From an uncultured Poribacteria bacterium (GTDB taxonomy: Bacteria; Poribacteria; WGA-4E; WGA-3G): a stretch of DNA of 64,000 nucleotides. A model generated the notes under the pieces. The model had not been told where the DNA came from. It ran no database searches and saw only the letters and a program-made list of their open reading frames with translations. Below, one piece after another: positions 4,283 to 61,368 of the stretch. The DNA is taken from NCBI GenBank assembly GCA_951813565.1, contig OX638351.1:4064001-4128000 (forward strand). The letters are read 5' to 3'. The position numbers and the translations under genes were made by a program. Within the stretch, counting starts at the first letter, position 1. The number at the start of each line of letters is the position of its first letter.

Positions 4283-4779
4283 AACGTGAGTTTAATAATT
4301 AAATTGAATATAGTAGGTTGGGTAGAGCGAAGCGAAACCCATAAATCAACGCTATGAATGCCTTTTGGCGGAATACGCTTTTGGTATTCCGCATGATTCA
4401 GCCAAATCAACGCAGCATGCGCCAAATCAACGCCAAATGCGCTTTTTGGCATTTGGCGGGTGTCAATTTAAGGATTTATTTTAGGTTTCACACACTTTAA
4501 CCCAAACAACACCGTAACCCGATTGTAGGGGCGGGTCTCTGTGCCCGCCCGTTGTTTGAATACATCAGCAATGGCGGGGCACCAAATCAAGAAATCAACG
4601 GTATGAATCATGGCGAATGCCAAAAGCGCATTCGTCTTTAGTCATTCACCGGGTATGAATGCCTTATGTCATTCCCCGGGACCCCGCCCTACAAGGTTTG
4701 ACGGGATTTATCCCCTAAATTGACGCCTATGGGTAGAGCGAAGCGAAACCCAACCTACGGGATTTATCAAACCCACGTT
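4283..4779. mobile_element. AAC-TIR MITE (AACGTGAGTT...AACCCACGTT), 5-bp TSD ATTTT, carrying nested elements
   Basis: ATTTT at 4278-4282 and 4780-4784; terminal inverted repeats; same family at 11016 and 50778. Confidence 0.75.
4340..4731. mobile_element. CATAG-TIR MITE (IS4/IS231-like ends) inserted in a REP hairpin, 19-bp TSD
   Basis: GGTAGAGCGAAGCGAAACC at 4321-4339 and 4732-4750; right TIR TAAATTGACGCCTATG; left TIR interrupted by micro-hairpins. Confidence 0.8.
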
Positions 4780-4945
4780 ATTTTATGAAGATAAATTTTA
4801 TCAAATTAACCTTCAATTGTCAAACTAATATATAAACCGAACAGTCTTGTAAATTAAAAACACCAATTATCTCTATAGTTGTGATAAAATATGAATTAGG
4901 AGTATAAACAGAACGATACAAACAGAAATTTAGGGAGTTGCGAAC

Positions 4946-5785
4946 ATGCCCGAACAACTTTTCATCAGTCAAGAATTTACACCTATTAACGGATTTACGT
5001 CTGGAATCGAGGGGCCTGCCTGCGATGCCGATGGCAATCTATATGCCGTTAACTTTGAACGGCAACACACTATCGGTAAGGTAACACCTGATGCCGAAGC
5101 AAGCGTTTTTGTAGAACTACCTACCGGTAGTATTGGAAATGGAATCCGTTTCAATAGTGAAGGCTTCATGCTCATTGCAGACTATACGAACCACAATGTC
5201 CTAAAGGTGGATATGCAAACGCGCGAAATTAGCGTTCACGCACACGAACCGACAATGAATCAACCGAATGACCTTGCAATCGGTGCTAATGATATTCTCT
5301 ACGCCAGCGATCCCAATTGGGGCGAGTCAACTGGGCAGATTTGGCGTGTGGATACAGACGGACAGGTTACACTGTTGGAAGCGGGTATGGGTACGACAAA
5401 CGGCATTGAGGTTAGTCCCGATGAAAAGGTACTTTATGTAAACGAATCGGCACAGCGTAACATCTGGGCTTATGACCTATCGTCTGCTGGAGAGATCAGC
5501 AATAAGCGGTTATTAATTCAGTTTCCAGATTTTAATATGGACGGAATGCGGTGTGATATTGAAGGCAATCTTTATGTCACTCGGCACGGCAAGGGTACAG
5601 TGGCAAAACTTTCGCCAGAAGGGGAAGTACTATTAGAGATTGAATTGACAGGCAAACTCTGTACCAATATCGCTTTCGGCGGTCCAGATGGATGCACATG
5701 CTACGTCACAATGGCTGACCGCGGGAATGTAGAGGTATTTCGCGCCGACATTCCCGGTAGGAGTTGGCGGCTATTCCAACGATAA
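4946..5785 (+). CDS. SMP-30/gluconolactonase/LRE family beta-propeller
   Basis: EGP, PND, NGI and DGM metal-ligand motifs; TNIAFGG; GGGAG RBS. Confidence 0.92.
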   Translation: MPEQLFISQEFTPINGFTSGIEGPACDADGNLYAVNFERQHTIGKVTPDAEASVFVELPTGSIGNGIRFNSEGFMLIADYTNHNVLKVDMQTREISVHAHEPTMNQPNDLAIGANDILYASDPNWGESTGQIWRVDTDGQVTLLEAGMGTTNGIEVSPDEKVLYVNESAQRNIWAYDLSSAGEISNKRLLIQFPDFNMDGMRCDIEGNLYVTRHGKGTVAKLSPEGEVLLEIELTGKLCTNIAFGGPDGCTCYVTMADRGNVEVFRADIPGRSWRLFQR

Positions 5786-5993
5786 AGAGACATCCAATTG
5801 TTGAGTTTTCTTATTGAAAAATAAAGGATATAGTTTCCAAAAGTTGTATGAGGCACAATGAATTGCGCTTAAACGCTTTTGTTTTTCTATCCAGATCAAC
5901 CCGAATAGGCTTGGCAGAATACACGTGTGGTATTCTACATGATTCGTCGGATAGAACCCTCTAACAATATCAGGTGCGGTTAGGAAACTGCAC

Positions 5994-6404
5994 CATAGGC
6001 GTCAATTTAGGGGATAAATCCCGTCAAACCTTGTAGGGCGGGGTCCCTGTGCCCCATAGGCGTCAATTTAAGCACATAATTACCAGATTGTCTCTTGTGG
6101 GAGTGAATCAACGCCAAATGCGCTTTTTGGCATTTGGCGGGTTTGTAACCCCGATTTTGTGAACCTAAACTAATTAAATCGGGGTTACAAACCCGCAGCA
6201 TGTCACACGCGCATGCTGCGTTGATTCACTCCTACAAGAAAATCTATCCTTAAATTGACGCCTATGGGCGGGTCTCTGTGCCCCGCCATTGCTGATGTAT
6301 TCAAACAACGGGCGGGCACAGAGACCCGCCCTACAATCGGGTTACGGTGTTGTTTGGGTTAAAATGTGTGAAACCTGAAATAAATCCTTAAATTGACACC
6401 TATG
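5994..6404. mobile_element. CATAG-TIR MITE with 19-bp TSD, containing a second copy (6055-6266)
   Basis: TGCGGTTAGGAAACTGCAC at 5975-5993 and 6405-6423; CATAGGCGTCAATTTA...TAAATTGACACCTATG. The inner copy has an imperfect 17-18-bp duplication. Confidence 0.85.
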
Positions 6405-6517
6405 TGCGGTTAGGAAACTGCACCTACCAGGTTAGGGTAATCGTGGTTGGAAACACCTCTAACTATGGTGACTTGTGCAATTGAATGTCTCTGGTTCATA
6501 TATAAAAAGTTTGACAT

Positions 6518-7429
6518 TATAGTTAAAATCATAAATATATTTACATTTTTCCGTTTTTGTGATAATAGTTATATTATGAGATATTCACAAGACTTACGAA
6601 AACGCGTTCTTGATTTCATAGCAGATGGTAATAGTAAAGCAGAAACTTCTCGCAGATTTCAAGTTTCACGCCGTTGTATCTATAACTGGTTAGACGCAGC
6701 CGACCCTTTTACTTACGAAAAACCGGGGCCTCGTAAACCTTATCGGCTTGACCCAGAAGCACTCGCTGAACATGTCAAAGAGTTCCCAGACAGCACGCAG
6801 AAAGAACGCGCTGCACATTTTGGCGTGTCGCAGCGTTGTATCTGTTATCGTCTGAAAAAGATCGGATACACACGTAAAAAAAGACATTCACCTACAAGGA
6901 ACAATGCGCTGTAAAACAGGATACCTATCGCGCTCAGCTTCAGATGGCACTTCAAAACGGAAAAATACCTGTTTTTGTTGATGAAAGCGGTTTTACTACA
7001 GAAAGTGTTCGGCAGTATGCTTATGCGCCGAAAGGAGTTTGCGTTACGGATAAAATCTCAAGTAATCGGTATAGAAGCACAACGCTCATTGCTGCGCAAA
7101 TCCAGGGGCGTTTTACAGCACCTGTGCTTTTTGAAGGTGCTTGTGATACGCTTGCCTTCAATGCGTGCGTGGCTTGAGAATGTGCTGTGTCCACTACTTG
7201 ACGCATCGCATGTTGTCATATTGGATAATGCGTCTTTCCATAAAAGCCAGCAAACAGAGGCATTGATTACTGCTTCCGGTGCGAGTTTACTTTTTTTACC
7301 TCCGTATTCGCCTCAACTTAATCCTATTGAAAGAGATTTTGCGAACATAAAGCGCAAATGGGAATACAATGCCGAAGCGTCAATTGACGAAATCATAAAA
7401 ATGTCCAAGTAATTATGGTTTCCACTATA
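6518..7429 (+). mobile_element. IS630-family insertion sequence
   Basis: TA-flanked imperfect TIRs (TATAGTTAAAATCATAA / TTATGGTTTCCACTATA); HTH orfA MRYSQDLRKRV; DDE motifs VDESGF, ILDNASFH and LPPYSPQLNPIE. Confidence 0.92.
6576..7412 (+). pseudogene. IS630 transposase, frameshifted
   Basis: A normal -1 slippery A7G site near 6876-6883 joins orfA and orfB. An extra GCGT duplication at 7163-7170 breaks the DDE domain. Confidence 0.8.
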
Positions 7430-7548
7430 ATTCAGATTTCGTGTAGATTATATCTATCATCAGACGTGCTTTCTTAGACACAGAAAAAGTTTGTTGACTC
7501 GCCAGCGGAGAAGGAGTTAGAACAGTGGACAGAAATGGAAGGTAAAAA

Positions 7549-8958
7549 ATGAGCCCCCCCAATATAATTTTAATGATGTGCGACGACTTGGGATATGGTG
7601 ATGTCGGATTTAACGGAAATGGGATAATCAAAACCCCGAATTTGGACCTTCTGACGAGCAATGGGATCCGATTCACGCGATTTTATGCGGGAGGGCCAGT
7701 GTGCTCGCCAACGCGTGGCACGTGTTTAACTGGGCGACATTATTTTCGATATGGCGTAACACATGCCAATCGTGGGCACTTACCTGCACAGGAAATAACA
7801 CTGGCGCGAATGTTAAAATCCTTTGGATATGCAACCGGACATTTTGGCAAATGGCATCTGGGCACACTGGACCCAAATTATTCGGGTAAGCGCAATCGTA
7901 ATCCAGCACGGAATTACGCTCCGCCGTGGGAGCGTGATTACGATACTTCTTTTGCCACGGAGTATGCAGTTCCCACTTGGGATCCCGCAGTAGGTTTCCA
8001 GAGGGACGGAAAGCGTGTGGACCGCCCCTGGGCCTCGCCTTATTACGAAAATGGAACACTGGCAACGGAAAATCTGGAAGGATGCGATTCCCGGGTATTA
8101 ATGGATCGCGCGATTCCATTTATTGAACAAGCTATTGAAAATGTCAAACCGTTCTTTACGACAATCTGGTTTCACGCACCCCATAGCCCAGTCGTTGCCG
8201 GACCGGAATATCGCGCAATGTATTCCGAATATAGCGAAGATGAGCAGCACTATTACGGTTGTATTACTGCCATAGACGATCAGGTGGGACGATTGTATCA
8301 CACATTGGCGGCATGGGGCGTATCCCAGAACACCATGATCTGGTTCTGTTCGGACAACGGGCCCGAGGGGCGCACTGGTCGAGATGGCCGTAACCGTGGA
8401 TCAACAGGCGGCTTGCGCGGGCGAAAACGATCTTTGTTTGACGGTGGCGTGGGCGTACCCGCGTTATTGCACTGGCCAGGTCATGCAGACCCCGGTCGCG
8501 TGGTAGAAATGCCGTGCAGCACGTTGGATTACTTCCCGACAATCGCCGAGGTCATGGAATATGAAATGCCAGATAATCGTCCGATTGACGGCATCAGTCT
8601 GCTACCGACCATTGAAGGAAACATGTCAGAACGCCCCACTCCGATTCCGTATCGGTTCAACAGTGGAAAAGGCGCAATGTTTGGCGCACCGACCATCGCA
8701 ATGATGGACAACCGTTATAAATGCTTGACCAACCTATCGAGTGATGGCAGCGAAGATTTGTGTTTTGACATGATTAAAGACCGTGCAGAAACGACCAACT
8801 TGGCAAATGAACAACGCGAGCATATCGGGCAAACCCGCAAGACCCTGCGCGAATGGCTCCGCTCATGTGAGGTTAGCCACAATGGTGGGGATTACGACGA
8901 GGCTTATGAACCGGTCGCGCCATTTGAAGAAGTCACTGGAGACTGGCACTCAAGATGA
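7549..8958 (+). CDS. Sulfatase (arylsulfatase A-like, Cys-type)
   Basis: PNIILMMCDDLG, CSPTR, GKWHLG, SDNG and LRGRK motifs. Confidence 0.95.
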   Translation: MSPPNIILMMCDDLGYGDVGFNGNGIIKTPNLDLLTSNGIRFTRFYAGGPVCSPTRGTCLTGRHYFRYGVTHANRGHLPAQEITLARMLKSFGYATGHFGKWHLGTLDPNYSGKRNRNPARNYAPPWERDYDTSFATEYAVPTWDPAVGFQRDGKRVDRPWASPYYENGTLATENLEGCDSRVLMDRAIPFIEQAIENVKPFFTTIWFHAPHSPVVAGPEYRAMYSEYSEDEQHYYGCITAIDDQVGRLYHTLAAWGVSQNTMIWFCSDNGPEGRTGRDGRNRGSTGGLRGRKRSLFDGGVGVPALLHWPGHADPGRVVEMPCSTLDYFPTIAEVMEYEMPDNRPIDGISLLPTIEGNMSERPTPIPYRFNSGKGAMFGAPTIAMMDNRYKCLTNLSSDGSEDLCFDMIKDRAETTNLANEQREHIGQTRKTLREWLRSCEVSHNGGDYDEAYEPVAPFEEVTGDWHSR

Positions 8959-8991
8959 AACAGAAATTAGTAAAGAAAGAGTGCCATTCGG

Positions 8992-9074
8992 GTTCGGAAG
9001 GTATTTCCAGTTTGAAGGAAATTGAAACTGAATGAAAGAGTGGAAGGTGTATCTGGTCTGAATGGTATTGAGAC
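8992..9074 (+). repeat. Two degenerate 37-nt CRISPR-like repeats separated by 9 nt
   Basis: GTTCGGAAGGTATTTCCAGTTTGAAGGAAATTGAAAC and GAGTGGAAGGTGTATCTGGTCTGAATGGTATTGAGAC; 25/37 identical; ATTGA(A/G)AC 3-prime ends. Confidence 0.5.
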
Positions 9075-9216
9075 GCAACAACTATGAGTCAAGCAAGGAA
9101 AAGGCACGTTTCCAAAACGTGCCTATATTTATGTTAATTTGTTCTTGTATGATTCAGAGAATGTGCTTCACAGTCAAGATGTGTACACAACAATTGAATG
9201 GCTCTGCTAACGATAA

Positions 9217-9429
9217 GGGTGTGTAAATATTTGGTTACATAGGTTCAATTTGCAATGATTACGCGGCGTTTTCCACTGTAGGGAGGGGTCCCTGTGCCCC
9301 GCCACTGCACAGGACGTGCCATGCAACGGGCAGGCACCAAATCAACGGTCCGAATGCCTTTTAGCATTCCCCGGAGACCCGCCCCTACAATAGGAGTTGT
9401 GCGGATTTCTACAAAAACTTTACACACCC
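9217..9429. mobile_element. MITE with GGGTGTGTAAA TIRs and 9-bp TSD (IS256-like geometry)
   Basis: TAACGATAA at 9208-9216 and 9430-9438; contains a REP pair and a micro-hairpin; partial inverted copy at about 19584-19675. Confidence 0.85.
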
Positions 9430-9445
9430 TAACGATAAAACTCCC

Positions 9446-9474
9446 TTGACAGGCGGTCCAGTCTGTGATATTAT
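9446..9474 (+). promoter_or_regulatory. Sigma70-type promoter
   Basis: TTGACA-17 bp-TATTAT with an extended TG, 21 bp upstream of the O-methyltransferase start. Confidence 0.6.
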
Positions 9475-9495
9475 GCCTACTTTATCAACACATGG

Positions 9496-10059
9496 ATGGT
9501 ATCTAATCTGGTAATGGAAAATTACGAACCTATTTTAAAACGGCTTGAAAAAACCGCAAAACAGTATACCAATATCGCACCCGAAAACGGGCAATTTCTT
9601 TCTATCCTCATCCGATCTATTCACGCGCAAAACGTCCTTGAAGTCGGTACAAGTAATGGTTACTCCACAATTTGGCTTGCGGCTGCGCTAAAGGAAACTG
9701 GAGGCAAACTCATCACCTTGGAGTTTGATCCAAAACGTGCAGCAGAGGCACAAGCACACCTCAAAGAAGTTAATTTACACGATATTGTTGAAATACGGGT
9801 TGGCAATGCACTTGATGAAATTCCTCAATGTAGTGCGACTGTCGACCTTGTGTTCCTTGATGCTGAGAAAAGCGAATACCGACGTTATCTTGAATTGGCA
9901 TTGCCTAACGTTCGGGCGGGCGGTTTAATTGTGGCTGATGATACCGTGACGATGCGCAATGAAATGTTGGATTATGTGGAATTCGTCTTTAACACATCTC
10001 TATTAAATTCTGTTGACATTCCTCTGGACGATGGTATAATTCTAAGCTATAAAACCTAA
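9496..10059 (+). CDS. SAM-dependent O-methyltransferase (Methyltransf_3, YrrM/COMT-like)
   Basis: VLEVGTSNGYSTIWLA, VFLDAEKSEY and GGLIVADD motifs. Confidence 0.9.
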   Translation: MVSNLVMENYEPILKRLEKTAKQYTNIAPENGQFLSILIRSIHAQNVLEVGTSNGYSTIWLAAALKETGGKLITLEFDPKRAAEAQAHLKEVNLHDIVEIRVGNALDEIPQCSATVDLVFLDAEKSEYRRYLELALPNVRAGGLIVADDTVTMRNEMLDYVEFVFNTSLLNSVDIPLDDGIILSYKT

Positions 10060-10167
10060 GTGTAGATTGTTGATGGCGCATTCTTCCAGCGATCTGCAAT
10101 ACAGTCCAATTCGTGGATTTCCCAAGTTTTTAGGAGTTTATAACCTACGACTAAAGGAGGAACCAAA

Positions 10168-10956
10168 ATGATACGTTTTACAATTAGTTTTATCACCATA
10201 GGCTTGATGCTTGCACAACTCAGCAACGCTGAAATCGATCCGAATACTATTGTCGGTGCGTGGTTGTTTAATGAATCAAATGGAAAGGTCGCTGCAGATT
10301 CATCCGACAATGGTAATGATGGCGACCTTGTTGGCGGTGCGAAATGGGTAAAGGGTAAATTTGGCAACGCTATTGAACTTAATGGTCAAGATGCTTGGGT
10401 CACTGTTCCAGCGATCGGGCCGCTTAAAGACTTTACACTGTTAAAGTGGTTTAATTCGACAGGTAGAGTTGGGGCGTGGAGATGCTTTTTTAACCGTGAT
10501 GGTTGGGCTGCTGGGTATGTCCATTATCAATTTCGTCCGGACAATAAGATGGAGATGGCTATTCACTCCAACAATCCAGTGCGACACCCGGGGTGGCCTG
10601 ATTCAGGTTTCACAGCAGACCAAAGCACTTTGGATAAATGGTTCCATCTTACAGTTGCATACAGCAGTACCGAAGAATCAGTTCGCGTCTACTTTGATGG
10701 GGAACTTGATGCCGAGGGTAAATGGGGTCCTTTACCCGGTGAATTTGGACCTGGCCGCATTGGCTCATGGTCTGGAGGCGGCAGAGAGTGGCAAGGGATG
10801 TTCGATGAAATGTTACTCTTCAATGTCTCATTAGAGGAAGACGACATTCAGATGTTAATGCAACATGGCTTAGAAGGGGCACTCGCTGTTGAAGCAGCAG
10901 ATAAAGCTGCGACAATTTGGGGTAAAATTAAGTTAGGATTTATGGAAAATAGATAG
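10168..10956 (+). CDS. Secreted LamG/concanavalin-like jellyroll protein with C-terminal WG-K tail
   Basis: Signal peptide; W-F-E..DSS.N..DG; GKFGNAIELNG; C-terminal AVEAADKAATIWGKIK; AAGGAGG RBS. Confidence 0.85.
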   Translation: MIRFTISFITIGLMLAQLSNAEIDPNTIVGAWLFNESNGKVAADSSDNGNDGDLVGGAKWVKGKFGNAIELNGQDAWVTVPAIGPLKDFTLLKWFNSTGRVGAWRCFFNRDGWAAGYVHYQFRPDNKMEMAIHSNNPVRHPGWPDSGFTADQSTLDKWFHLTVAYSSTEESVRVYFDGELDAEGKWGPLPGEFGPGRIGSWSGGGREWQGMFDEMLLFNVSLEEDDIQMLMQHGLEGALAVEAADKAATIWGKIKLGFMENR

Positions 10957-11004
10957 ACACTTTTCGGCAAGCATTTTGCGAGGTTGTTTATAGACTCCTC
11001 ATAT

Positions 11005-11297
11005 TATAGTAAATTAACCTAAGTTGCTACGGACAAGATTTCAAGTTAGCAAACACTGCTTTTACTGAAAAAACAAGGCTTTTTCGCTGATTCTTATGTT
11101 TTTTGTTCTAAATCGGGGTTAGAAACCCCTCCTACAAGAGCATTGCGAAATAGGTGGCAACTTGGGTTAAATTATGTAAATAAGTTCACATATATTCTGT
11201 AGGAGCGCTCTCCGAATCGCGACGAAACCACTGTTAGTCGGGAATCGGAGTTTCCTCGGACAGCTCAGATGTCCAGTTAATTGTAGAATCCGCTATA
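11005..11297. mobile_element. TA-flanked (IS630-type) MITE carrying a REP pair and a nested AAC-TIR MITE (11016-11168, TSD AAATT)
   Basis: A near-identical uninterrupted copy at 24801-24935 defines the empty allele. Confidence 0.85.
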
Positions 11298-11299
11298 AT

Positions 11300-12493: not shown

Positions 12494-12669
12494 CCTGCAG
12501 TGACTGATTCGTTCAATTTTTCAGTAGTTTCCACATTCGGGCAAAGATCTCTTCTTGTAGGAACGAGCTCCAGCTCGCGACCTGTCTAATATTTTGGCGA
12601 AAACTCTAAAACAGAATCGATATAACAGTAACGGGTTATGACACGAAATTTTCATAGAGGAACAATATT

Positions 12670-12876: not shown

Positions 12877-12877
12877 T

Positions 12878-17899: not shown

Positions 17900-18101
17900 C
17901 ATAGCTGTCAATTTAAGGATATACCCTCTTGTGGGAGCGAATCAACGCAGCATGCGCGTTTGGCATGCTGCCAAATCAACGCCAAATGCGCTTTTTGGCA
18001 TTTGTCGGGTTTTCAACCCCGATAAACATATATAAATCGGGCTTATAAAGCCCTCCCACAAGAGGCAATCTGGTAATTATGTGCTTAAATTGACGCCTAT
18101 G
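17900..18101. mobile_element. CATAG-TIR MITE with 19-bp TSD in a REP
   Basis: GGTTTCGCTCCGCTCTACC at 17881-17899 and 18102-18120. Confidence 0.88.
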
Positions 18102-19258: not shown

Positions 19259-19690
19259 TTCTATCCTTCACTATTTTGAGGTGAAACCATGACAGGGAAC
19301 ATTCTTGTCACTTGTTTGATATGTTAGCAGAAGTTACGGGTACCATGCAATAAAAAAGCGAAATAGCCTGACTTTGCGGGGAAACAGGGCTATTTAGTTT
19401 TCGGTTTTTCCGGCGTATTTCATGACATACTTTAATGTTTTATAGCAGCATTGTAGTCGAGTTTCGCTATCACTCTATCTATAGCCTCAACTTACAAAAA
19501 AGATGTGCTATGCAAAGTAGTAGGCACACGCCGGGGAATGCCTAAACGGCATTCGGACCCGGTGAATGACTAAAGACGAATGCGCAGTGGCGGGGCACAG
19601 GGACCCCGCTCTACAGTGGAAAACGCCGCGTAATCATTGCAAATTGAACCTATGTAACCAAATATTTACACACCCACATTCATATTTATC

Positions 19691-33442: not shown

Positions 33443-33789
33443 AGTGCGTTCCTATTTTTAACATGAGTTCGTCTTTAAGAATTTCGGAGGTGCCCGACGC
33501 GATTCATTTTGATAACAGATCATTTTCCGCACTCCAGCGGAGTGCTATGTCTATAGAAAACGTGATACCCAAATTATAGCATTCCAGCGGAGTGCTATGT
33601 GTGATGGATTCGCATACCGCTCCGCTGGAGCGGAGGAAAGAACTGACTCTTTTCTATTTTCTAAGTTAACATTGCGAGGCACCAAATCAAGAAATCAACG
33701 GTATGAACGACATTTAGTCATTCACCGGGTCCGAATGCCTCTTTGGCATTCCCCGGAGACCTCGCGCTACAAATCGGGTTAATTTGATA

Positions 33790-41484: not shown

Positions 41485-41702
41485 CATAGGCGTCAATTTA
41501 GGGATTTATTTCAGGTTTCACACATTTTAACCCAAACAACACCGCAACCCGATTGTAGGGGCGGGTCTCTGTGCCCGCCCATTGTCTAAATACATCAGAT
41601 ATGGCGGGGCACAGAGACCCCGCCAAATGCCAAAAAGCGCATTTGGCGTTGATTTGGCCCTACAATGTGTGACGGGATTTGCCCACTAAATTGACGCCTA
41701 TG
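41485..41702. mobile_element. CATAG-TIR MITE with 19-bp TSD in a REP
   Basis: GGTAGAGCGCATCAAAACC at 41466-41484 and 41703-41721; perfect 16-bp TIRs. Confidence 0.9.
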
Positions 41703-43451: not shown

Positions 43452-44039
43452 TAGTTTGCTCCTTATACCTATCCGTCGAAACGGATTGCAACTCCTACAT
43501 AGATGCGACAATAATAGCATATCTTATCCAGAAGCGTCAAGCCAAATCCCAGAGTCGGGCAGGGTTATTTAGTTTTCTATATTTCCGACGATTTTTATCA
43601 TACACGTTAATGCTTATAATAGTATCGTCCGTTGGGTAGAGCTTGCGAAACCCATAGGCATCAATTTAGTGGGCAAATCCCGTCAAACCTTGTAGGGCCA
43701 AATCAACGCCAAATGCGCGTGTGGCATTTGTCGGGACTAAAGAGCGTGTCCGCAACGTTTTCTATAAACATATCGTCCCTACGGGACTAAGGAAAATACC
43801 GAATTTATTTTTTAATCTTCATTTAGTTTGCGTCTCATAAGGCACAAACTGAAAGTTTGTGCTACAACTTCTATTGTCCATTATCTTTCCAAGACAAGTT
43901 TAGCAAAGTGTCCCAATAATTTCAAAGTTCACTATAAATAGCCCTGCCACTATAAAACTTTTCTGTTGTCATTTTTTTAGAGATATGGTATTGTAAAAGA
44001 TAAGATTTTGACCACACTAAAGAGGACAACTTGTTGAGT

Positions 44040-53097: not shown

Positions 53098-53139
53098 ACC
53101 ACAGTAACTTTGTAAGAATGTGAAACGTTAGGAAAAACA

Positions 53140-55866
53140 ATGTCTAATTTTTATGCAGAAAGTATCGCATTTCTGTTAAACCAATTTAGTACCGATCTGG
53201 AATACGGCTTAAGCCACGCGGCAGTAGAAAAATTAAAGACACATTATGGTAATAATGTGCCGAATTCCAAGATAGATGCTTCGCAAATCGGATCCTTTTT
53301 TGAGCAGGTCCTTAACTGGAGATTACTGCTTTTAGTACTTGCCATAACAGTTTTTGTATTTTCCACTGATGTGCCGAGAATTGCCCTTATCGGAGGGGTT
53401 TTGATTCTTTCTTTCTGTTGGGCGACTATAGTTTCAATAAGTTTTCGACGTAGACACAAGCAACGTACAGCACAATTCAGCATTACCGTTGCGGTTATGC
53501 GTCAAGGTACGCAAGAAAAATGTTCCCCCTCCGATATTGTACCAGGGGACCTGCTTCTTCTTAAACCCGGCGATTATATCCCTGCCGATGCCCGAATAGT
53601 GCAATCAGACGGGTTAAAAGTTAACGAATCTGTGCTATTCGGGAGTAGTGGTTCAGCTGCAAAAACTTTTAAGGAGATAAAGGAGACTGGACTCCCTCCG
53701 GAAAAACAGACAAACATGGTTTTTGGAGGGACATACGTTGATACTGGAACAGGTCAGGCGATCGTGGTCAGAATAGGTGATGAGTTAGAAATGCACCAGA
53801 ATCGTGGAAATGCACGTTCTTTGCCGCACGAGACGACTGTCGCAGAAAATCAAATAAAATTTTTCATAGATATTCTAAAAGTCATAGGTCTGGTTGTCGG
53901 TGGAATAGCAGTTGCTATTTTCTGGTGGCAAAAATCACAACAGAGTGATCCAACAAATTGGATAGAATTCCTTCAATTCGGTTTAATTTTTGCAATTGCC
54001 GCAACCCCTCATGACTTAGTGTTGCTACTACACTCCATCTTTGATCAGAAAACCTCTGGTGTGCTTAAGAAAGGCATGGCACTCCGAAATAGGCATTTCC
54101 TTGAGAAATTGAATCGTCTCACAGCTTTTTGTACTGATGAAAAAGGCATCGCAAGCACAAAATCTCTCACTATTTCCAGTATTTTTGTTGATCAACAAAT
54201 GGTAAACCGTTCTGTATGGGAAAATTGGTTAAAATCACTCAAATCCCAGTCACCTGAAGAAAAAAGCAAGCGAATAAATGATATTCCACCAAGATTTCAA
54301 ATTCCTCAAGGTGCTCCTGGACTCGTGCTGACTGCAGGGTTGGGAACTTCCGGCGAACGGTATTATGATAGGACGGGAGTTGATCATGCACATCAACTTG
54401 TTATACAAGACACTATGGAACGACTCGGGTATAAGCTGGCAGATCTTAAATCTAATATGCATCTTGTCTCTGAATATCCATGGACACCGAACTTCGGATA
54501 TGAACTTCATGTGTTTGAATCAGAGGAAAACGAGTATCTGAACATTATATTTGGCGATGCCCGTAATGTGCTTGAGGCGTGTAATTCCATTCTTGTAAAT
54601 GGAGAGGTATCTGAATTCTACTATGAACAGTATGAGATGTGTAGTGAAATTCTCAATTACATGCAAAACCCCAGGGATACTGTTTATGGTGTAGCATCAT
54701 TACATTCCGAGGTGCCGCTAACACCACAAGAAGTTCAGGGAATGTCAACTTTTTTAGGATTCATTAGTTTTTCTGTCACTGATAACGACGAGACAAAAGA
54801 AGTTATAAAATCATTTATGGATATAGGCTTAAAGGTCATTCTAATGAGTGAAAGTGACGAACAAAAAACAACCGATTTAGCCAAAGAGTTGGGTCTCGTC
54901 CATACTCGTAATGCAGTCGGAACAAGAGAAGAACTGATGCAGCTATCCACACAAGAGTTCGACAAAGAAGTTCCAAATTGGAATGCCTATTCGCAACCGA
55001 CACAAGAACAACGTAGGAATATTGTGCTCAGTTTGAAACGACACAATCATTCTGTTGGTTATTTGGCACAAAATGCTAACGATCAACGCGCGATGATCAC
55101 GGCTGACCTCGCACTGGCAGATACAAGGTACGCTTCACATTTTGCCCAAGAACATGCCGACTGCCTGATAATTGAAAAAGGCTTCAAGGCAGTTAAGGAC
55201 TGCTTGCTATATGCGCGAGAAGCGTATCACAATCTTTCTGGTTCGCTTCGGTGGTGTTTATCATGCACACTGGCACAATTTTTTACTGTCGTTTTTGGAT
55301 TAATTCTGCATGCCAGGTTCAAGTTTGAGATGCCGCTAACACTTACGCAGGTGGTCTGGGTTCAATTTTTAACAACGCTGCTTCCAGCAATTGGATTAGG
55401 TTATGAACAGATAACCGTTGATGAAAAGCGACATCACCCCGGCAGAGCAACGATGCTCCTTCCGAAAACCGCTGTGATTGATATTGTTTGCCGAAGTCTT
55501 GTTATTAGTTTAATGACAATTATCCATTTTTTGGTGCTAACAGTTACTGGAACAGAATCTAATCTTATAGAGGCACGCACAGCAGCCTGTACTACATTGA
55601 TTTTTGCACAGGTGGCTGTATACTTCCAATGCACGCGATATCCATGGGAATCTCTTTTTAAAAGGATGTTCACTAACGTCCGTCTATTTGTAATTTTTCT
55701 AATCGTTATCGGGCTTCATGCATCAGCGATGTACATTGCCCCCATGCAGAATATTTTGGAAATCGTACCGCTTCAGCAGGAATGGATAGTAACGTCTTTG
55801 TGTAGTCTGATTTTGCTACTGTTACCATTAAATTTAGCGATAAATCCACGCAAAGATAGAACTTAA
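53140..55866 (+). CDS. P2-type ATPase-like protein with degenerate catalytic motifs
   Basis: IVPGD..GDYIPADAR, NMVFGGT and the TM layout are typical of P2A pumps; DKTGT, TGES, TGD and GDGxND are all altered. Confidence 0.8.
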   Translation: MSNFYAESIAFLLNQFSTDLEYGLSHAAVEKLKTHYGNNVPNSKIDASQIGSFFEQVLNWRLLLLVLAITVFVFSTDVPRIALIGGVLILSFCWATIVSISFRRRHKQRTAQFSITVAVMRQGTQEKCSPSDIVPGDLLLLKPGDYIPADARIVQSDGLKVNESVLFGSSGSAAKTFKEIKETGLPPEKQTNMVFGGTYVDTGTGQAIVVRIGDELEMHQNRGNARSLPHETTVAENQIKFFIDILKVIGLVVGGIAVAIFWWQKSQQSDPTNWIEFLQFGLIFAIAATPHDLVLLLHSIFDQKTSGVLKKGMALRNRHFLEKLNRLTAFCTDEKGIASTKSLTISSIFVDQQMVNRSVWENWLKSLKSQSPEEKSKRINDIPPRFQIPQGAPGLVLTAGLGTSGERYYDRTGVDHAHQLVIQDTMERLGYKLADLKSNMHLVSEYPWTPNFGYELHVFESEENEYLNIIFGDARNVLEACNSILVNGEVSEFYYEQYEMCSEILNYMQNPRDTVYGVASLHSEVPLTPQEVQGMSTFLGFISFSVTDNDETKEVIKSFMDIGLKVILMSESDEQKTTDLAKELGLVHTRNAVGTREELMQLSTQEFDKEVPNWNAYSQPTQEQRRNIVLSLKRHNHSVGYLAQNANDQRAMITADLALADTRYASHFAQEHADCLIIEKGFKAVKDCLLYAREAYHNLSGSLRWCLSCTLAQFFTVVFGLILHARFKFEMPLTLTQVVWVQFLTTLLPAIGLGYEQITVDEKRHHPGRATMLLPKTAVIDIVCRSLVISLMTIIHFLVLTVTGTESNLIEARTAACTTLIFAQVAVYFQCTRYPWESLFKRMFTNVRLFVIFLIVIGLHASAMYIAPMQNILEIVPLQQEWIVTSLCSLILLLLPLNLAINPRKDRT

Positions 55867-57815
55867 ACCCAAAATCCGTAGGTCGGTATACCTCCAATAA
55901 TACCTATAATTGTCCAAATACTTCCTACCGTAAACTCACCAAGGATAAGTCCTAAAAAGAACGGCGCTACCTTTCTGTATCTCACAGGTCCACCATATTT
56001 GAGAATGATCAGTTTAATTAACCAGCTCATAAAAAGACAACCCCATGTAACATGCATGCCCCAACTGGTAGAAATAGCAAAGCCGGCAGGATGAAACGGC
56101 CACCACACAAAACGCATTCGAAATAGCATTAGCACTGCTGTCAGTAGAAATCCAATACCTGTAAACAGACTTTCTGGGATAAGCGTGTCAGTAGGAGATT
56201 GAAGCCAGCCTGTTAGACGGCGGTAAGGTTCTATACCAAATGCACTCAAAGATGGCCAATACGCCCGTACTTCCATTCCTAATCGATAACCTCGGTCGAT
56301 TAAAGCCCAAAAACCTGCCAACGACCCTAACACAGCGGCTAACATTAAGGCAAAGATAATCCGTTTCATTGTCATATTTGTCCGCTCTATAATTTTAAAA
56401 CCTTCTAACTGATGTGGCATCGGATGGCTTCGATATGCACGATTGATAAACCAAAACATTGAAAACATGATGAGATTATCTCTACCCAACCTGCGTGTGC
56501 CTACGACCCGCGTTAAAATTTGGTCAGGACCAGAATAGTGCAGATCATGCACGGGAGTTCCCAACTCAGCACGCATGCGCGTGATTGCAATAGAAATCAT
56601 ATAATAGATAGCAAAAAACGCGAGCATAACGCCTATATTGGCACCGCCATAGTAGCAAAAAATAACTAAGAAAACCATTACCGCGATGAGTCCGATAACG
56701 GCAGCTCTGTAAGAAATCGCTTCATTTTCATCTTCTTGTGATTTGTTTCGGCTGAAAAGTGCTCGTCCTACCTGAAGTAGATGTCTGCGACTTGCCCATA
56801 TAGCTAAAACGCACAAGGCAAGGTAACCGCCAGATGCTTGCTCGTTCGTGTAAGGAAAACGTGGAAGGTTTCGAAATCCAAATGCGGCACCCGCAACACG
56901 CATTAACCGCCAATACCAAAAGAAAAACCAACAGGAAAAAGAGAGGTCAAGTGGGATGAAGAACCCAAGTCCAATTGCAAATGGATAGAGTGAAAACGGT
57001 ATTCTACCCATCGCGTTCCAAGGGCTTTCTGTGAAAACTTGGTAACTCCGAATACGGGTGCGTAGTTCGGGTAGAAATGGGTATAAAAAACTTATACCGT
57101 TCCATAATGCCAAGCCCCCAGCAACACAAAAACCGAGCCACATTAACTTATTCTGAAAAAGACGATTTTGAGGGGTTTCCGTAAGGTTGAGAGGAAGATG
57201 TATAATCGGATAACTTAGTTTTTCATACTCAATCCACTGTTTTCGGATAATAATATTGATGCAAAGCATGCCGAAAATCAATACACTAATAAAGACTGTC
57301 CACCACAATACGGGTGTTGCCCAACCAAGCAAGGATTCAAATGTATAAAGTGGTAGATCACCTTCATAATAACCTTGTAGCAATTGGCTATTGCTAACCG
57401 TGAGCCAGTCTGGAAGGAAAGGTAGAAACAGTTGTTGCCATTCATTTTCAGGCGTTGCAAAGCGGAAGGCATGACCAAGCATCGGCACCAAAATTTCAAG
57501 CATATCATGCCCAGTAATTCCTGATGCGATGGAAAGCATCAGGTAAACAACGACCAACTCGCTTTGGACCAAAGCAATTCGTGGAAGAAACCGCTGCAGT
57601 AACTGGTTGAGACCGATAACTACAAATAAACTAAAAATAACATTGAAAAAGAGAGAAATCGTAACAGGGTGTCCCGAATAACGGATGACCTCCATTTCAA
57701 TAACCCAATAGCAATTTATCGGAATTAGAATAACAGCAATTAGGATGGATTTAAGCGTAACCCCGTGAGCAGGAATGTTTGAGGACGACGGGGGTGGGGC
57801 TTTTTGAATTTCCAT
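55863..57815 (-). CDS. Polytopic membrane protein, DUF6785/DUF6784 (OPT-like peptide transporter) family
   Basis: RKQWIEYEKLSYPI, TRMRAELG, WWPFHPAG and PFFLGLILGE motifs. Confidence 0.7.
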   Translation of the reverse strand: MEIQKAPPPSSSNIPAHGVTLKSILIAVILIPINCYWVIEMEVIRYSGHPVTISLFFNVIFSLFVVIGLNQLLQRFLPRIALVQSELVVVYLMLSIASGITGHDMLEILVPMLGHAFRFATPENEWQQLFLPFLPDWLTVSNSQLLQGYYEGDLPLYTFESLLGWATPVLWWTVFISVLIFGMLCINIIIRKQWIEYEKLSYPIIHLPLNLTETPQNRLFQNKLMWLGFCVAGGLALWNGISFLYPFLPELRTRIRSYQVFTESPWNAMGRIPFSLYPFAIGLGFFIPLDLSFSCWFFFWYWRLMRVAGAAFGFRNLPRFPYTNEQASGGYLALCVLAIWASRRHLLQVGRALFSRNKSQEDENEAISYRAAVIGLIAVMVFLVIFCYYGGANIGVMLAFFAIYYMISIAITRMRAELGTPVHDLHYSGPDQILTRVVGTRRLGRDNLIMFSMFWFINRAYRSHPMPHQLEGFKIIERTNMTMKRIIFALMLAAVLGSLAGFWALIDRGYRLGMEVRAYWPSLSAFGIEPYRRLTGWLQSPTDTLIPESLFTGIGFLLTAVLMLFRMRFVWWPFHPAGFAISTSWGMHVTWGCLFMSWLIKLIILKYGGPVRYRKVAPFFLGLILGEFTVGSIWTIIGIIGGIPTYGFWV

Positions 57816-57852
57816 TTAGTCTTGAATCAGCTCACGGGTATTATTTTTATGT

Positions 57853-57881
57853 AGTCTACCGCAATGCGCGTGGGTTGTCAA
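57853..57881 (-). promoter_or_regulatory. Sigma70-type promoter
   Basis: TTGACA-17 bp-TAGACT on the minus strand, about 38 bp upstream of the 57815 start. Confidence 0.55.
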
Positions 57882-58086
57882 CGGCTATTTTATTCCTACC
57901 GTGAGATATTTAGGATATGCATTACGAATATTTCATACATGTTTCCCGAATTCCCTTACATGTTACCATGCATGTTCGTTCTAACTGTAAGTTACTGTGG
58001 CTTATAAGTTACATGTAGCTACACGGGGTGATAGATTTAAGCTTAGTTAGTATAAGATTTTATTTTGGTAGATTTCAGAATTAATT

Positions 58087-58314
58087 GAGGGATGTGCATA
58101 AATAATTCCCATGTTAAAGTATGTGTTTAAAGGTAGTCCGCACACGCCGTGGGTTTCCGTCCACAAGTTCAAAGAGGCGCAGCATGCCACACGCGCATGC
58201 TGCGTTGATTTGGCAATGAATTGCGCGACTACAAACGGCATTTCTATAAATCAAGCGGCACCTGGCGTCTGTCCCTGTCTGTGTTGATCCGCCAAATATT
58301 TATGCACACTCCTC
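58087..58314. mobile_element. MITE with GAGG..TGTGCATAAATA TIRs and 8-bp TSD
   Basis: AATTAATT at 58079-58086 and 58315-58322; contains REPs and a micro-hairpin. Confidence 0.8.
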
Positions 58315-58459
58315 AATTAATTAGACATTATTGATCTGTGCATCAACGCAGCATGCGCTTTTGGCATGCTGCGGGAGTGATCTCCGATTCCCGACTATCA
58401 AAGCGGTTAGTCGCGATTCGGAGATCACTCCTACAGAATTAGTATCTCATTAATTATAC

Positions 58460-58835
58460 TATAGTTTGGACAATTTTAGCTGTTTTCGTGAGGTTGGGTT
58501 AGACAGAAACATCTTAGAAATAGATATAGTTTTCATATTGGACACCTGTCGCCCCGCTGGGGCTGAAGCGGGTTGTTTACAGCGTTTCTATACACCTGTC
58601 GCCCCGCTGGGGCTGCCCAAAAGTATTTTTGGACGAGTTCTTTCAGCCAGCAAAATCGCAGAAAATATAAATACTATAAGATGACACCTTAGCCCCAGGG
58701 GCGACAGGTGTATAGAAGAAGGTAATTGCCGCTGTCTAAAGCCCCCGCGGGGCGACAGGTGTCCAATATTTTGCTTTGGACACCTAACAGTTTCTCAGCA
58801 AGTCCTCGAACAGTATGTAAATTGTCCAAACTATA
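58460..58835. mobile_element. TA-flanked (IS630-type) MITE carrying doublet GCCCC-GGGGC hairpin repeats
   Basis: TATAGTTTGGACAATTT...AAATTGTCCAAACTATA perfect IR. Confidence 0.78.
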
Positions 58836-58879
58836 GTATAATATTAAGAGGGATAATGAATTGCGCGACTACAAACGCG

Positions 58880-59995
58880 TTATTGGATTGTGCTTGCCTT
58901 TAAACCACTACCCGTCAGAACTGAAACCGTCACATCCCCTTCTCGGATAATACCTTCCTGCTTAAACTTCTCATATCCCTCAATTACGACAGCAGAGGTT
59001 GGTTCAACATAGATACCTTTCTCGGCAAGCGTTTTTATTCCCGCCTTAATGTCCGCATCATCAACAGTCGTAAACGCACCATTGGTAAAACGGATCGCCT
59101 CTAAAATCGTTCGCTCTCGGATAGGAATTTCAGCAGTAATACCTTCCGCAAGGGTTGGTCTGGTTTGTAGCATTCTTGAGATGGTGGGTGTTTTATCACA
59201 GTAAGCGTTGTAAATTGGGCAACAGGTTTCAGGTTGAACACCGAGTAAACGGGGAACACGTTCAATCGTCCCCGCTTCGTGCAATTCCCGATAACCGAGA
59301 AAAAGTCCCAGATAGATGCTTCCGAATCCGACAGGACAGATAATATGTGCAGGAACGTCTCCTTCCAACTGCTCAGTTATTTCATAAGCAAGTGTCTTTG
59401 TGCCTTCCAAGAAAAAGGGATGCCAATTGTGAGAAGCATAGCAGGTGTTTTCTGCAGCCAGTTTAACGGCTTCTGTTGTTGCGGTCCGATTTCCCGGCAC
59501 CAGTTTTAACTCTGCACCGTAAGCAGAAATCTGTTTTAATTTACCTTTTGAGGTAGATTCTGGACAGTAGATGGTACAGCGAATACCTGCTCTTGCACTG
59601 TAGGCAGCGATTGCTGCACCTGCATTGCCCGATGAATCCTCAACGACATCTGTAACGCCATGTGCTTTGAGATGTGTCAACAGGACGGATGCACCTCGAT
59701 CTTTATATGAACCGGTTGGACAGAGATAGTCCAGTTTTACATAGTGTTCTGGGTTTTCCGTTGGGTTCAGCGGAATGATAGGGGTCATTCCTTCGCCAAG
59801 GGTGATAATCTCGGAGTCTGTGGGAATAGACAATGCCTCGCGGTAACGCCAAAGTGAGGGTATAGAGGCATCGTATTTTTGAGATCGCGAGGCATTTTTT
59901 TCCAGGGTTAACGGGGAACCACAATCACATTTATATCGTAATGCTGTCACTTTATAGGTAGCATTACATCTATTACACAGATATTGCATGGTCAT
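58880..59995 (-). CDS. thrC: Threonine synthase-like PLP enzyme
   Basis: N-terminal CxxC..CxC, LGEGMTP, PTGSYKDRG, SSGNAG and EPTSA motifs. Confidence 0.8.
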   Translation of the reverse strand: MTMQYLCNRCNATYKVTALRYKCDCGSPLTLEKNASRSQKYDASIPSLWRYREALSIPTDSEIITLGEGMTPIIPLNPTENPEHYVKLDYLCPTGSYKDRGASVLLTHLKAHGVTDVVEDSSGNAGAAIAAYSARAGIRCTIYCPESTSKGKLKQISAYGAELKLVPGNRTATTEAVKLAAENTCYASHNWHPFFLEGTKTLAYEITEQLEGDVPAHIICPVGFGSIYLGLFLGYRELHEAGTIERVPRLLGVQPETCCPIYNAYCDKTPTISRMLQTRPTLAEGITAEIPIRERTILEAIRFTNGAFTTVDDADIKAGIKTLAEKGIYVEPTSAVVIEGYEKFKQEGIIREGDVTVSVLTGSGLKASTIQ

Positions 59996-60672
59996 TCAGT
60001 ATGAGTCTTCAGTTGTCCCCAAGTCATTGCCAACTTGGATACCGGATCGACAGCTTGTGGCATACCAAACAAACCGTCCGGGTCAAAATTCTTTGGTGGT
60101 TCAATAGTGCTGACCCAAACGCGATTGATCCAAATCGGTCCTTTACCGTTCGAAGAAAATCTGAAATCCGAACCATTCGCACGATTCTCAAAACGACCAT
60201 CTTTGATTATCCAAATATGAACGCGCCATTTATCTGTTCCTTCAGGTTTTAAAACAGGAAAAGCACCATCTCCTGCACCACGGAACGCACCGCCAACGGG
60301 ACCAGCACCATTGCTGTCATATTGGCAATTAATCTGTTCCGCCTTGTTGGAGTCAAAATATTCCATGACAATCCAGGCTTTATGGTTTCCGCCGAATAGA
60401 AATGAATCGTCAATTTTGAAATACATGTGGTTGTGTCCTGGTCCATTATAGGGCCAAGGGTTTTCCAAACAGTCCACTTTATCCTGCACAGCAGGTTCTG
60501 TGATTCCATCTCCTTGTTCACTTTGGGTTAGTAATACACCTTCGCTTTCCTCACCAAGGTCTACCCAAATGAAGTTTTCACCTTCAACCGGTTCTTCCGC
60601 AGCAAATGCACCAAGTGAAATCAGAAAGCATTGAATCAAAAGAATTACTGTCAATTGAATACAACGGGACAT
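59992..60672 (-). CDS. Secreted hypothetical protein with C-terminal WG-K tail
   Basis: Signal peptide; C-terminal AVDPVSKLAMTWGQLK; AAGGAGG RBS. Confidence 0.75.
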   Translation of the reverse strand: MSRCIQLTVILLIQCFLISLGAFAAEEPVEGENFIWVDLGEESEGVLLTQSEQGDGITEPAVQDKVDCLENPWPYNGPGHNHMYFKIDDSFLFGGNHKAWIVMEYFDSNKAEQINCQYDSNGAGPVGGAFRGAGDGAFPVLKPEGTDKWRVHIWIIKDGRFENRANGSDFRFSSNGKGPIWINRVWVSTIEPPKNFDPDGLFGMPQAVDPVSKLAMTWGQLKTHTE

Positions 60673-60689
60673 TTTTTTCCTCCTTATAA

Positions 60690-61018
60690 TTGTGAGTTTT
60701 AGTGAAACCTACAATAGTCGTTTGGCGGGAATCCGGAACATCATAAGTGGAAAGCACACCACTGATTAGCGGGAAACCGACGAGTTTTCCATCTGTGTTC
60801 TTAGTATTACCAGCGTAATGCCCATAGTCATTGGTTCCTTTTACTTCCAGAAACTCAATACCAGGCACATTTATCGTCTCATAGATATAATGTGAGGTGT
60901 GTGTTTCGGCAATAGTGATAGGGATGGGTGGTAGATCAACTTGTGCTGCGGCGTGCCACGAAAAACAGATAATTAGACTTATGAACAAGGGAAGTTTCGT
61001 TTTTATGTGGTGACTCAT
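60690..61018 (-). pseudogene. Truncated paralogue of the adjacent repeat protein
   Basis: Signal peptide plus YETINVPGIEFL..YAGNTKNTDGKLVGF.LI.GV.STYD, matching the start of the 61390 repeat unit. Similarity then stops and the frame runs into the next gene. Confidence 0.6.
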
Positions 61019-61077
61019 AGTTATCCTTTTTAGGTTAAAAGAACCATATCGTAGACTGAGTCGAGCGGAGCGAAACT

Positions 61078-61368
61078 CATAACTGTCAATTTAAGCACAT
61101 AATTACCGGATTATCTCTTGTGGGAGGGCTTTGAAAGCCCGACTTTGTGAGATTCAAACAGGTAAATCCAAATCAACGCTGAATACGTGTTTGGTATTCA
61201 GCGGGTGTCACAGCGTTGATTTAAAGGTAGCAGGTATACTCCGTCCGCCGTCCGCTCACATATTTTTGGAAAATATACGGCACACGGCGTGTGCCTACTA
61301 CTTTGCATGTGTATTATCAAGGTTGAAAACTCTCTCACAAGAAAGATTACACGTTAAATTGACACCTG
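61078..61368. mobile_element. Degenerate CATAG-TIR MITE with REPs and a micro-hairpin
   Basis: CATAACTGTCAATTTAAG...TTAAATTGACACCTG; the left part matches the 6055 copy. Confidence 0.6.

What the first reader, a model, noticed from the sequence alone, without database searches (positions are those of the whole stretch)
4343..61203. Family of ~35-nt hairpin micro-insertions that land inside REPs and inside each other
Seen: roughly 20 copies of a tiny unit. Read on one strand it is a stem-loop followed by CGTTGATT(Y)(R); on the other it is (A)AATCAA-CG-stem. Copies lie at 4343-4458 (several), 4583-4678, 5914-5943, 6104-6139, 6194-6228, 9338-9373, 17938-18007 (two), 19532-19585, 33683-33755, 41622-41656, 43698-43733, 58179-58212, 58340-58373 and 61168-61203. 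Filled and empty alleles both occur in the window. Removing the 35 nt at 41622-41656 restores ACCCCGCCCTACAA as at 4681. Removing the 34 nt at 58179-58212 restores GAGGCGCAATGAATTGCGCGACTAC (compare 41751). There is no target duplication, and insertion is 3-prime of a C, usually at C|G. Stems co-vary (CCAAATGC/GCATTTGG, CAGCATGC/GCATGCTG, CTGAATAC/GTATTCAG) around a constant ATRC-loop-GYAT core, so structure appears to be under selection. Established: hairpin recognition without a TSD is how HUH (Y1) enzymes such as IS200/IS605 TnpA and RAYT work. Inference: this is a minimal single-hairpin mobile element moved in trans, distinct from GTAG REPs. I do not know of a description of it.
Basis: partly seen in the sequence, partly recalled or inferred. 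Interest (0 to 1): 0.8.

Follow-up and report, generated by a model that had tools for sequence, protein, structure and literature searches.

The report
Tiny hairpin insertion element of Poribacteria
A 34-base DNA hairpin with a fixed seven-base tag has been inserted hundreds of times into the repeats of a sponge-symbiont genome, and in relatives more than once into the same codon of one gene, often removing a few target bases; it is among the smallest mobile DNAs, and the enzyme that moves it is still unidentified.

Summary
Real. The unit is NN-AATCAAC plus a 9-bp hairpin, 34-35 nt. There are 11 intact copies and about 10 nested, truncated or sister pieces in the window and 443 standard copies in this Poribacteria genome. 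It occurs in 79 of 99 same-family genomes and almost nowhere else in the phylum sample. The scan noted it on this genome before.

Added here: (1) orthologous coding sites. One gene is filled in 9 of 59 orthologs, and the filled alleles do not form one clade (AU p=6e-6), so the same codon was hit at least twice. (2) The joints are asymmetric. Only 5 of 14 host-repeat families show a clean +34; 9 show +32/+33, and the two coding sites +30 and +33. This does not fit strict IS608-type peel-and-paste.

No cognate gene was found. Reverse transcriptase was not found in several copy-rich relatives; RAYT-like Y1 genes are widespread but do not track the element. No lone unit differed between conspecific strains (0 of 66).

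Best guess: ssDNA inserted at a Y1-type nick, second joint made by repair (0.4). Closest kind: cyanobacterial SDRs.

The parts
4342..4402 (+). Bulged unit (TA-AATCAAC-GCTATGAATGCC...ATTCAGC) holding a sister unit in its 3' arm, at the edge of an IS630-type miniature repeat end
4368..4395 (+). Sister unit: same ATRC/GYAT hairpin, ATG(A) tail, no AATCAAC tag
4403..4422 (+). Truncated standard unit (tag plus 5' arm), interrupted at its loop by the next unit
4423..4457 (+). Standard 35-nt unit, CA leader
   Evidence: 47.5 bits
4583..4677 (+). Nested compound in a REP loop: bulged unit split at its tag by a second bulged unit, which holds a sister hairpin (4612-4636, - strand)
5914..5941 (+). Sister unit (hairpin plus ATG tail), no TTGATT tag
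6104..6138 (+). Standard 35-nt unit, TG leader, at G|G of a GTGG REP; 3 exact empty alleles in the genome
6195..6228 (-). Standard 34-nt unit, TG leader, in the partner REP of the same doublet
9338..9372 (+). Bulged 35-nt variant in a REP loop; the commonest empty allele has one more base (A) at the site
17938..18006 (+). Head-to-tail stack of two standard units with different stems (17938-17971, 17972-18006); 15 exact empty alleles
19532..19585 (-). Tag-less remnant of a nested bulged compound; a conspecific contig (L454) carries a tag-bearing extension here
33683..33754 (+). Nested compound of two bulged units in a REP loop
41622..41656 (-). Standard 35-nt unit, CA leader, clean insertion at C|G of a GTAG REP stem
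43699..43732 (+). Standard 34-nt unit with left and right flanks from two different repeat families (no empty allele), probably recombination between units
58179..58212 (-). Standard 34-nt unit, CA leader, clean insertion at C|G; shared with a conspecific contig (L392)
58339..58372 (+). Standard unit with a mutated tag (CATCAAC); the empty allele reads TCTGTAGGAG, net gain 33
61169..61202 (+). Standard 34-nt unit, CA leader; no empty allele found

Best explanation
A non-autonomous micro-element moved in trans as single-stranded DNA. SHOWN: it is inserted as a unit of nearly fixed length into many unrelated targets, its own copies and coding genes. The joint at the hairpin foot is fixed; the joint at the tag end often lacks 1-4 target bases. 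INFERRED: the active strand reads hairpin-GTTGATT-NN. The target is nicked 3' of a C (consensus ACCC|), the hairpin-foot end is joined or copied onto that 3'-OH, and the tail is then fitted to the target through 1-2 matching bases and host repair, which trims the target. Each insertion leaves a new C|G at its foot, so units stack. GUESSED: the nick and first joint are made by a resident Y1/HUH enzyme of the RAYT type, which the unit parasitises. It is one-ended transfer plus repair, not the two exact joints of IS608.
For: Fixed joint: the base beside the hairpin foot is G in 61 of 64 target classes, then G 47, G 46, T 35; one boundary fits 206 of 241 units with an exact empty allele. Loose joint: net gain is 34, 33 and 32 in 5, 5 and 4 of 14 host families, and none of the 9 has an empty allele equal to clean removal; +30 and +33 at two orthologous coding sites. 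Recurrence at one codon; 68 of 89 neighbours in stacks have different stems. Strand: 47 mismatches read as G.T on the TTGATT strand, 18 on the other. Many nicks fall at C|T or C|A on that strand, the sites that RAYTs cut, 5' or 3' of a hairpin, leaving a 3'-OH usable as primer or nucleophile (PMC8266576, passages). The tail is 8-9 nt, close to the 10 nt between hairpin and cut at the IS608 right end (PMC3201880, passage). The genome has three RAYT-like and two subclass-1.2-like Y1 genes, and RAYT-like matches occur in all six most copy-rich genomes.
Against: No Y1 gene is flanked by the unit as a cognate locus. RAYT-like genes also occur in 34 of 36 genomes of two families that lack the unit, and were not found with this query in G041 (77 copies), G030 (47) or G034 (34). 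The commonest class inserts at C|G, which is not a reported RAYT site in the passages I read. The unit lacks a GTAG-type guide 5' of its hairpin. Targets are only modestly enriched in hairpins (median -5.2 against -4.1 kcal/mol, p=0.006) and GTAG-like words (52% against 35%). Paralogous empty alleles may not be the true targets, and coding sites are filtered for in-frame results. The G.T counts are on related haplotypes. No intermediate was seen, and no lone unit differed between conspecific strains.
Confidence: 0.4

Rival explanations
1. No dedicated enzyme. Hairpin oligonucleotides released during replication or repair are captured at nicks or stalled forks in other hairpins by template switching and microhomology; the tag only favours release or priming.
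For: Variable target loss and 1-2 nt matches at the tag end; G-run at the fixed joint; chimeric flanks, two-headed forms and slippage products exist; no cognate gene found.
Against: Seven invariant tag bases and a nearly fixed length across two genera point to a specific reader; the same codon was hit more than once; no Ku match in the genome.
Confidence: 0.2
2. Moved by a specific enzyme of a family not yet linked to transposition, which reads the tag and the ATRC/GYAT core.
For: Every known candidate tested failed or was uninformative: IS110, RT, IS605 ends, Y1 subclasses. The unit is confined to one family of the phylum sample.
Against: Argument from absence; only about ten families were searched, and the IS91 search had no working control.
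Confidence: 0.15
3. Short RNA copied into a target nick by a reverse transcriptase (target-primed), as proposed in outline for SDRs (recalled).
For: One exact and one ragged joint with microhomology is what target-primed reverse transcription leaves (own knowledge). This genome has two RT genes.
Against: RT matches in only 18 of 40 genus genomes; none in G064 (389 copies), G028 (140), G122 (139), G039 (90, one contig), G035 (84), G041 (77). No orientation bias to transcription: 67 sense, 81 antisense, p=0.29.
Confidence: 0.12
4. Strict IS200/IS605 peel-and-paste of a minimal PATE: exact excision as a circle and exact insertion by TnpA.
For: No terminal inverted repeats or duplication; clean +34 in 5 of 14 host families; IS605 TnpA genes present; a 52-bp PATE may be mobile in Haloquadratum (PMC3119063, passages).
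Against: Target loss in 9 of 14 families and at an orthologous coding site; ends unlike any of 63 TnpB-element ends listed; variable leader and target.
Confidence: 0.1
5. Passive cargo of larger repeats from one or a few ancient events.
For: Much of the copy number is cargo: 14 target classes of 4 or more copies hold 179 of 244 free units, and a 213-bp carrier with a unit differs between strains.
Against: 64 target classes, unique coding sites with empty orthologs, several origins at one site.
Confidence: 0.03

Closest known systems
Small dispersed repeats (SDR1-8) of Nostocaceae (Elhai et al. 2008, Genome Res 18:1484). Paper not held; seen only through passages of PMC5861425 and PMC4390886; other details recalled.
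   Same: Very small, gene-less, structured repeats that insert into other repeats and (recalled) into themselves, with no known enzyme; SDR5 inserts at a fixed point of a palindrome.
   Different: 34-35 nt against 21-27 nt (recalled); Poribacteria, whereas SDRs were reported only in Nostocaceae; a fixed AATCAAC tag; frequent loss of target bases; in-frame coding insertions. Sequences could not be compared.
GTAG/CGTC-tagged REPs and REPINs with RAYT (TnpA-REP) (PMC3733652, PMC8266576, PMC3333891, PMC6006769, PMC3116915; passages or single parts read)
   Same: Size, tag plus hairpin, mostly intergenic, hundreds of copies, occasional in-frame copies in genes.
   Different: Tag is 7 nt and not GTAG, GTGG or CGTC; no flanked RAYT gene; stacks head to tail and nests; uses REPs as targets.
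PATEs of the IS200/IS605 family and SMR elements of Haloquadratum (PMC3119063, passages; IS608 mechanism PMC3201880, passages)
   Same: No duplication, too short to code; SMRs also target the palindromes of other elements by an unknown mechanism.
   Different: One hairpin, not two IS605-like ends; no terminal inverted repeats as in SMRs (80-110 bp); joints often lose target bases.
Rickettsia palindromic elements (RPE), as described in PMC3733652 (passages)
   Same: Palindromic repeats fixed in frame inside protein genes.
   Different: Much shorter here; coding copies are rare (7 of 443 wholly inside ORFs).

Membership tests
SDR (Nostoc) | Dispersed, structured repeat with compensatory stem changes (feature recalled) | tested here: met
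SDR (Nostoc) | Inserts into other repeats and into itself (self-nesting recalled) | tested here: met
SDR (Nostoc) | Length 21-27 nt (recalled) | tested here: not met
   436 of 443 units are 34 or 35 nt
SDR (Nostoc) | Found in Nostocaceae | tested here: not met
SDR (Nostoc) | Sequence likeness to SDR1-8 | not testable with these tools
   paper not held
REP/REPIN with RAYT | 20-50 nt extragenic palindrome in high copy | tested here: met
   430 of 443 lie wholly outside ORFs of 150 aa or more, which cover 81% of the genome
REP/REPIN with RAYT | GTAG, GTGG or CGTC tetranucleotide at the hairpin foot | tested here: not met
   tag is AATCAAC; AATCAA and TTGATT have 0 occurrences in the main text of PMC3733652
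REP/REPIN with RAYT | Cognate RAYT gene flanked by the repeat | tested here: not met
   Y1 loci are flanked by other palindromes; two carry a single unit inside an upstream REP; no such gene among 22 ORFs flanked on both sides
REP/REPIN with RAYT | Cleavage by the RAYT protein | not testable with these tools
   needs an in vitro assay
IS200/IS605 PATE | No terminal inverted repeats and no target duplication | tested here: met
IS200/IS605 PATE | Palindromes related to the ends of a resident IS605-type element | tested here: not met
   63 element ends read by eye, none like the unit
IS200/IS605 PATE | Joints without gain or loss of DNA | tested here: not met
   net +32/+33 in 9 of 14 host families, +30 at an orthologous site
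IS200/IS605 PATE | Strand bias relative to replication | tested here: inconclusive
   242:201 overall, 31:26 for unique sites, but the GC skew does not define replichores well

The most novel reading that the evidence does not exclude
The unit is the minimal substrate of an undescribed, gene-independent insertion pathway: a 34-nt tagged hairpin is written into a nick with one exact joint and one repair-made joint, either by hijacking a domesticated HUH nuclease or by a new enzyme. The same pathway would explain SDR-like micro-elements in other phyla and would add 10-11 residue loops to proteins at repeatable sites.
Probability: 0.3. Interest if true: 0.85.

Novelty: new variant of a known kind. 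Interest (0 to 1): 0.6.

Why it matters
How repeats of 20-40 nt spread through bacterial genomes is an open question: REP movement has not been shown in vivo in the papers read, and the SDR mechanism is unknown. This family gives defined ends, defined targets, empty and filled orthologs and a joint signature that separates mechanisms, so it can be assayed. It also shows in-frame peptide insertion recurring at one codon. If a small enzyme writes a 34-nt ssDNA into a nick, that is of interest as DNA-writing chemistry. The score is held down because the kind is known, the enzyme was not found and present-day activity was not shown.

Tried and rejected
Reads: only assembled contigs of 4 runs were available, and no RNA holder was listed. 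Joints that skip 41622-41656 or about 58174-58214 have short sides inside repeats, so paralogues explain them; inconclusive. Conspecific contigs: 72 of 121 loci matched this genome at 90% or more. Of 99 units, 58 were identical, 8 differed by substitutions or a 2-nt gap, 0 were absent, and 33 were set aside (25 near contig ends, 8 with non-orthologous flanks). Length differences at units were confined to stacks, one nested 71-nt block and carrier repeats. Cognate gene: 56 loci from 35 low-copy genomes share no mobile-element neighbour by all-against-all BLAST, read by eye and not Pfam-scanned. No IS110 match, no Ku; the IS91 search had no control hit. Subclass-1.2-like Y1: 93 of 151 genomes, not found in copy-rich G029, G028, G122, G039. 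No match in Rfam, viral contigs, plasmids or phages. Second coding site: two filled groups, but one origin is not rejected (p=0.108). A 3-nt duplication (GCC, GCA) can be read at 41622 and 58179 but does not hold across families. A link to the ISDra2 TTGAT target (recalled) or to a Cas6-type tag (recalled) was considered and dropped: no matching element end, and the local CRISPR repeat has another tag. One search used a pattern one base short and is void. The genome-wide covariance search scored only 150 of 4929 candidates and gives no copy number.
Full report
Setting. The window is C1:4064001-4128000 of a 5.43-Mb one-contig genome, 43% G+C. Relatives carrying the same pattern are titled Candidatus Poribacteria. 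The window's genes are ordinary housekeeping and catabolic genes. AATCAACG and its complement are the two most over-represented 8-mers of the genome.

Observation. CGTTGATT occurs 21 times against 3.45 expected. AATCAA is followed by a perfect stem of 10 bp or more in 198 of 6935 cases; seven control hexamers give 0-5. A covariance model built from 83 haplotypes finds 11 tag-bearing units in the window. The rest of the 'about 20' are nested bulged variants, one truncated unit, one tag-less remnant and three copies of a sister unit.

Anatomy. On one strand the unit reads NN-AATCAAC-R-8-bp stem-loop-stem-C. Of 465 candidates, 443 pass a core filter; 314 are 34 nt and 122 are 35 nt, and only 7 lie wholly inside long ORFs. 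They form 287 loci. The seven tag bases are invariant in the alignment (the rows were chosen by that tag). Eight of nine stem pairs show changes on both sides (rows were also pre-selected for pairing, and gene conversion between arms could give the same picture). A bulged variant has 106 intact copies and 280 tag-bearing starts. A sister unit with the same core and an ATG(A) tail has 98 copies.

Range. The pattern occurs in 36 of 37 same-genus and 41 of 57 sister-genus genomes, from 0 to 392 copies, and in 2 of 51 genomes outside the family as poorly paired matches; the reversed control pattern matched once in 151 genomes. There was no match in viral contigs, plasmids, phages or Rfam.

Is it mobile by itself? 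The 244 free-standing units fall into 64 target classes; 14 classes hold 179 of them, so much of the copy number is cargo of larger repeats. Independent movement is shown at coding sites. In a beta-propeller gene of the sister genus, 9 of 59 anchored orthologs carry the unit and 50 are empty; 5 more loci had no anchor and were left out. Empty alleles read SDGWY, filled ones SD-ESTPNARMAFD-GY. A tree built without the site puts the filled alleles in separate clades and rejects one clade (AU p=6e-6). Flank comparison tempers this: group C matches its empty kin best in every window; group B ties within about 30 nt, so a short-tract transfer is possible; the two halves of group A probably share one event. 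So there were at least two insertions at the same codon, probably three. A second site, the N-terminus of an 8-oxoguanine glycosylase gene, is filled in 14 of 30 orthologs, this genome included; one origin is not rejected there (p=0.108). In stacks, 68 of 89 neighbours have different stems, which fits serial insertion at the C|G that each unit re-creates.

Joints. One boundary fits 206 of 241 units that have an exact empty allele. But exact matching finds only clean cases. With free spacing, 14 host families have both states: 5 gain 34 nt cleanly, 5 gain 33 and 4 gain 32. In those 9 no empty allele equals clean removal; for example 198 empty TAG alleles, none with GG, against 22 filled. The coding sites gain 30 and 33. 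The hairpin-foot joint is constant: G follows in 61 of 64 classes, with consensus GGGT. The tag-side joint varies, with leaders CA (after C in 20 of 22 classes), TG, GG, CG and others. There is no consistent duplication. Caveats: paralogous empties may not be the true targets, coding sites are filtered for frame, and at the glycosylase site the base after the unit is A in 10 and G in 4 filled alleles, so that event may have been a clean 33-nt insertion.

Present activity. Not shown. Contigs of four runs gave no clear empty ortholog in the window. Of 66 units with orthologous flanks in conspecific contigs, all are present in both strains. Differences are in stack length, one nested block and carrier repeats.

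Enzyme. Not found. The genome has five IS605 TnpA matches and five other Y1 matches; none is flanked by the unit, and no ORF flanked on both sides is a mobile-element gene. Low-copy relatives show no shared neighbour. IS605 ends are unrelated. IS110 and Ku were not found. RT is found in 18 of 40 genus genomes and not in six with 77-389 copies. RAYT-like genes are found in 117 of 151 genomes, including families without the unit; subclass-1.2-like genes in 93 of 151. There is no orientation bias to transcription.

Mechanism. One fixed and one ragged joint is the main constraint. It fits a nick 3' of C on the hairpin-TTGATT strand, joining or priming at that 3'-OH, and repair of the tail. RAYTs cut C|T and C|A near hairpins and leave such a 3'-OH (PMC8266576; models in PMC3333891), and most targets here are REP-like repeats. 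Strict peel-and-paste makes joints without gain or loss (PMC3201880) and fits only the clean class. I give 0.4 to a Y1-type nick plus repair, 0.2 to enzyme-free capture, 0.15 to an unknown enzyme, 0.12 to RT, 0.1 to strict peel-and-paste and 0.03 to cargo alone. The insertion pattern is shown; strand, order of steps and enzyme are inferred.

Comparison. It works like an SDR or a REP-sized non-autonomous element, and fails a defining feature of each family tested (membership table). Papers: I saw the first part of PMC8266576 and passages, part 2 and passages of PMC6006769, and passages only of PMC3116915, PMC3733652, PMC3201880, PMC3333891, PMC3119063, PMC5861425, PMC4390886 and PMC2884548. The SDR paper was not held, and its details here are recalled. 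Searches that found no description of this family: (listings only). The library lacks most subscription journals, so this does not show that it is not in print.

Earlier notes of this scan. Eight notes on this genome describe the same unit and gave the SDR lead; notes on other genomes describe similar micro-elements, one with 2-3 nt target loss. They are leads, not support.

Verdict. A real, lineage-restricted micro-element; a new variant of a known kind; interest 0.6.

Noticed in passing
window 4368-4395, 4612-4636, 5914-5941; 98 copies in the genome: Sister micro-unit: same ATRC/GYAT hairpin, loop in the opposite sense to its tail, ATG(A) tail, found mostly inside the 3' arm of other units.
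   Followed up: partly
window 4260-4740 and 5970-6400: Two composite repeats in inverted orientation around an SMP-30/gluconolactonase gene, built from REPs and short GGCGTCAATTTA-type ends.
   Followed up: no
window 6447-7412: IS630-family transposase in two ORFs (HTH_Tnp_IS630 and DDE_3), multi-copy in the genome.
   Followed up: no
window 58450-58845: About 390-bp non-coding repeat with several copies at 92-97% identity elsewhere in the genome.
   Followed up: no
L172:799-832 (G000 C1:4444600): A unit is fixed in frame in the N-terminus of an 8-oxoguanine glycosylase gene in 14 of 30 orthologs, and erodes into ordinary coding sequence in three of them.
   Followed up: yes
L011/L013 (G000 C1:3.99 Mb): Stand-alone reverse transcriptase between a CRISPR array and a cas1-like gene; a second, unrelated RT lies at C1:812 kb.
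   Followed up: no
L006, L007 (G000 C1:3098 kb, 1369 kb): Y1 genes with a subclass-1.2-like motif are flanked by their own palindromes; the table in PMC6006769 lists no REP for that subclass.
   Followed up: no
G000 C1:1292617-1292650: A unit overlaps the predicted N-terminus of a membrane protein ORF in the sense direction; orthologs not checked.
   Followed up: no
L422 against G000 C1:4.55 Mb: Two 90-110 bp TA-flanked repeats are inserted inside and beside a nested unit in this genome and absent from a conspecific contig.
   Followed up: no
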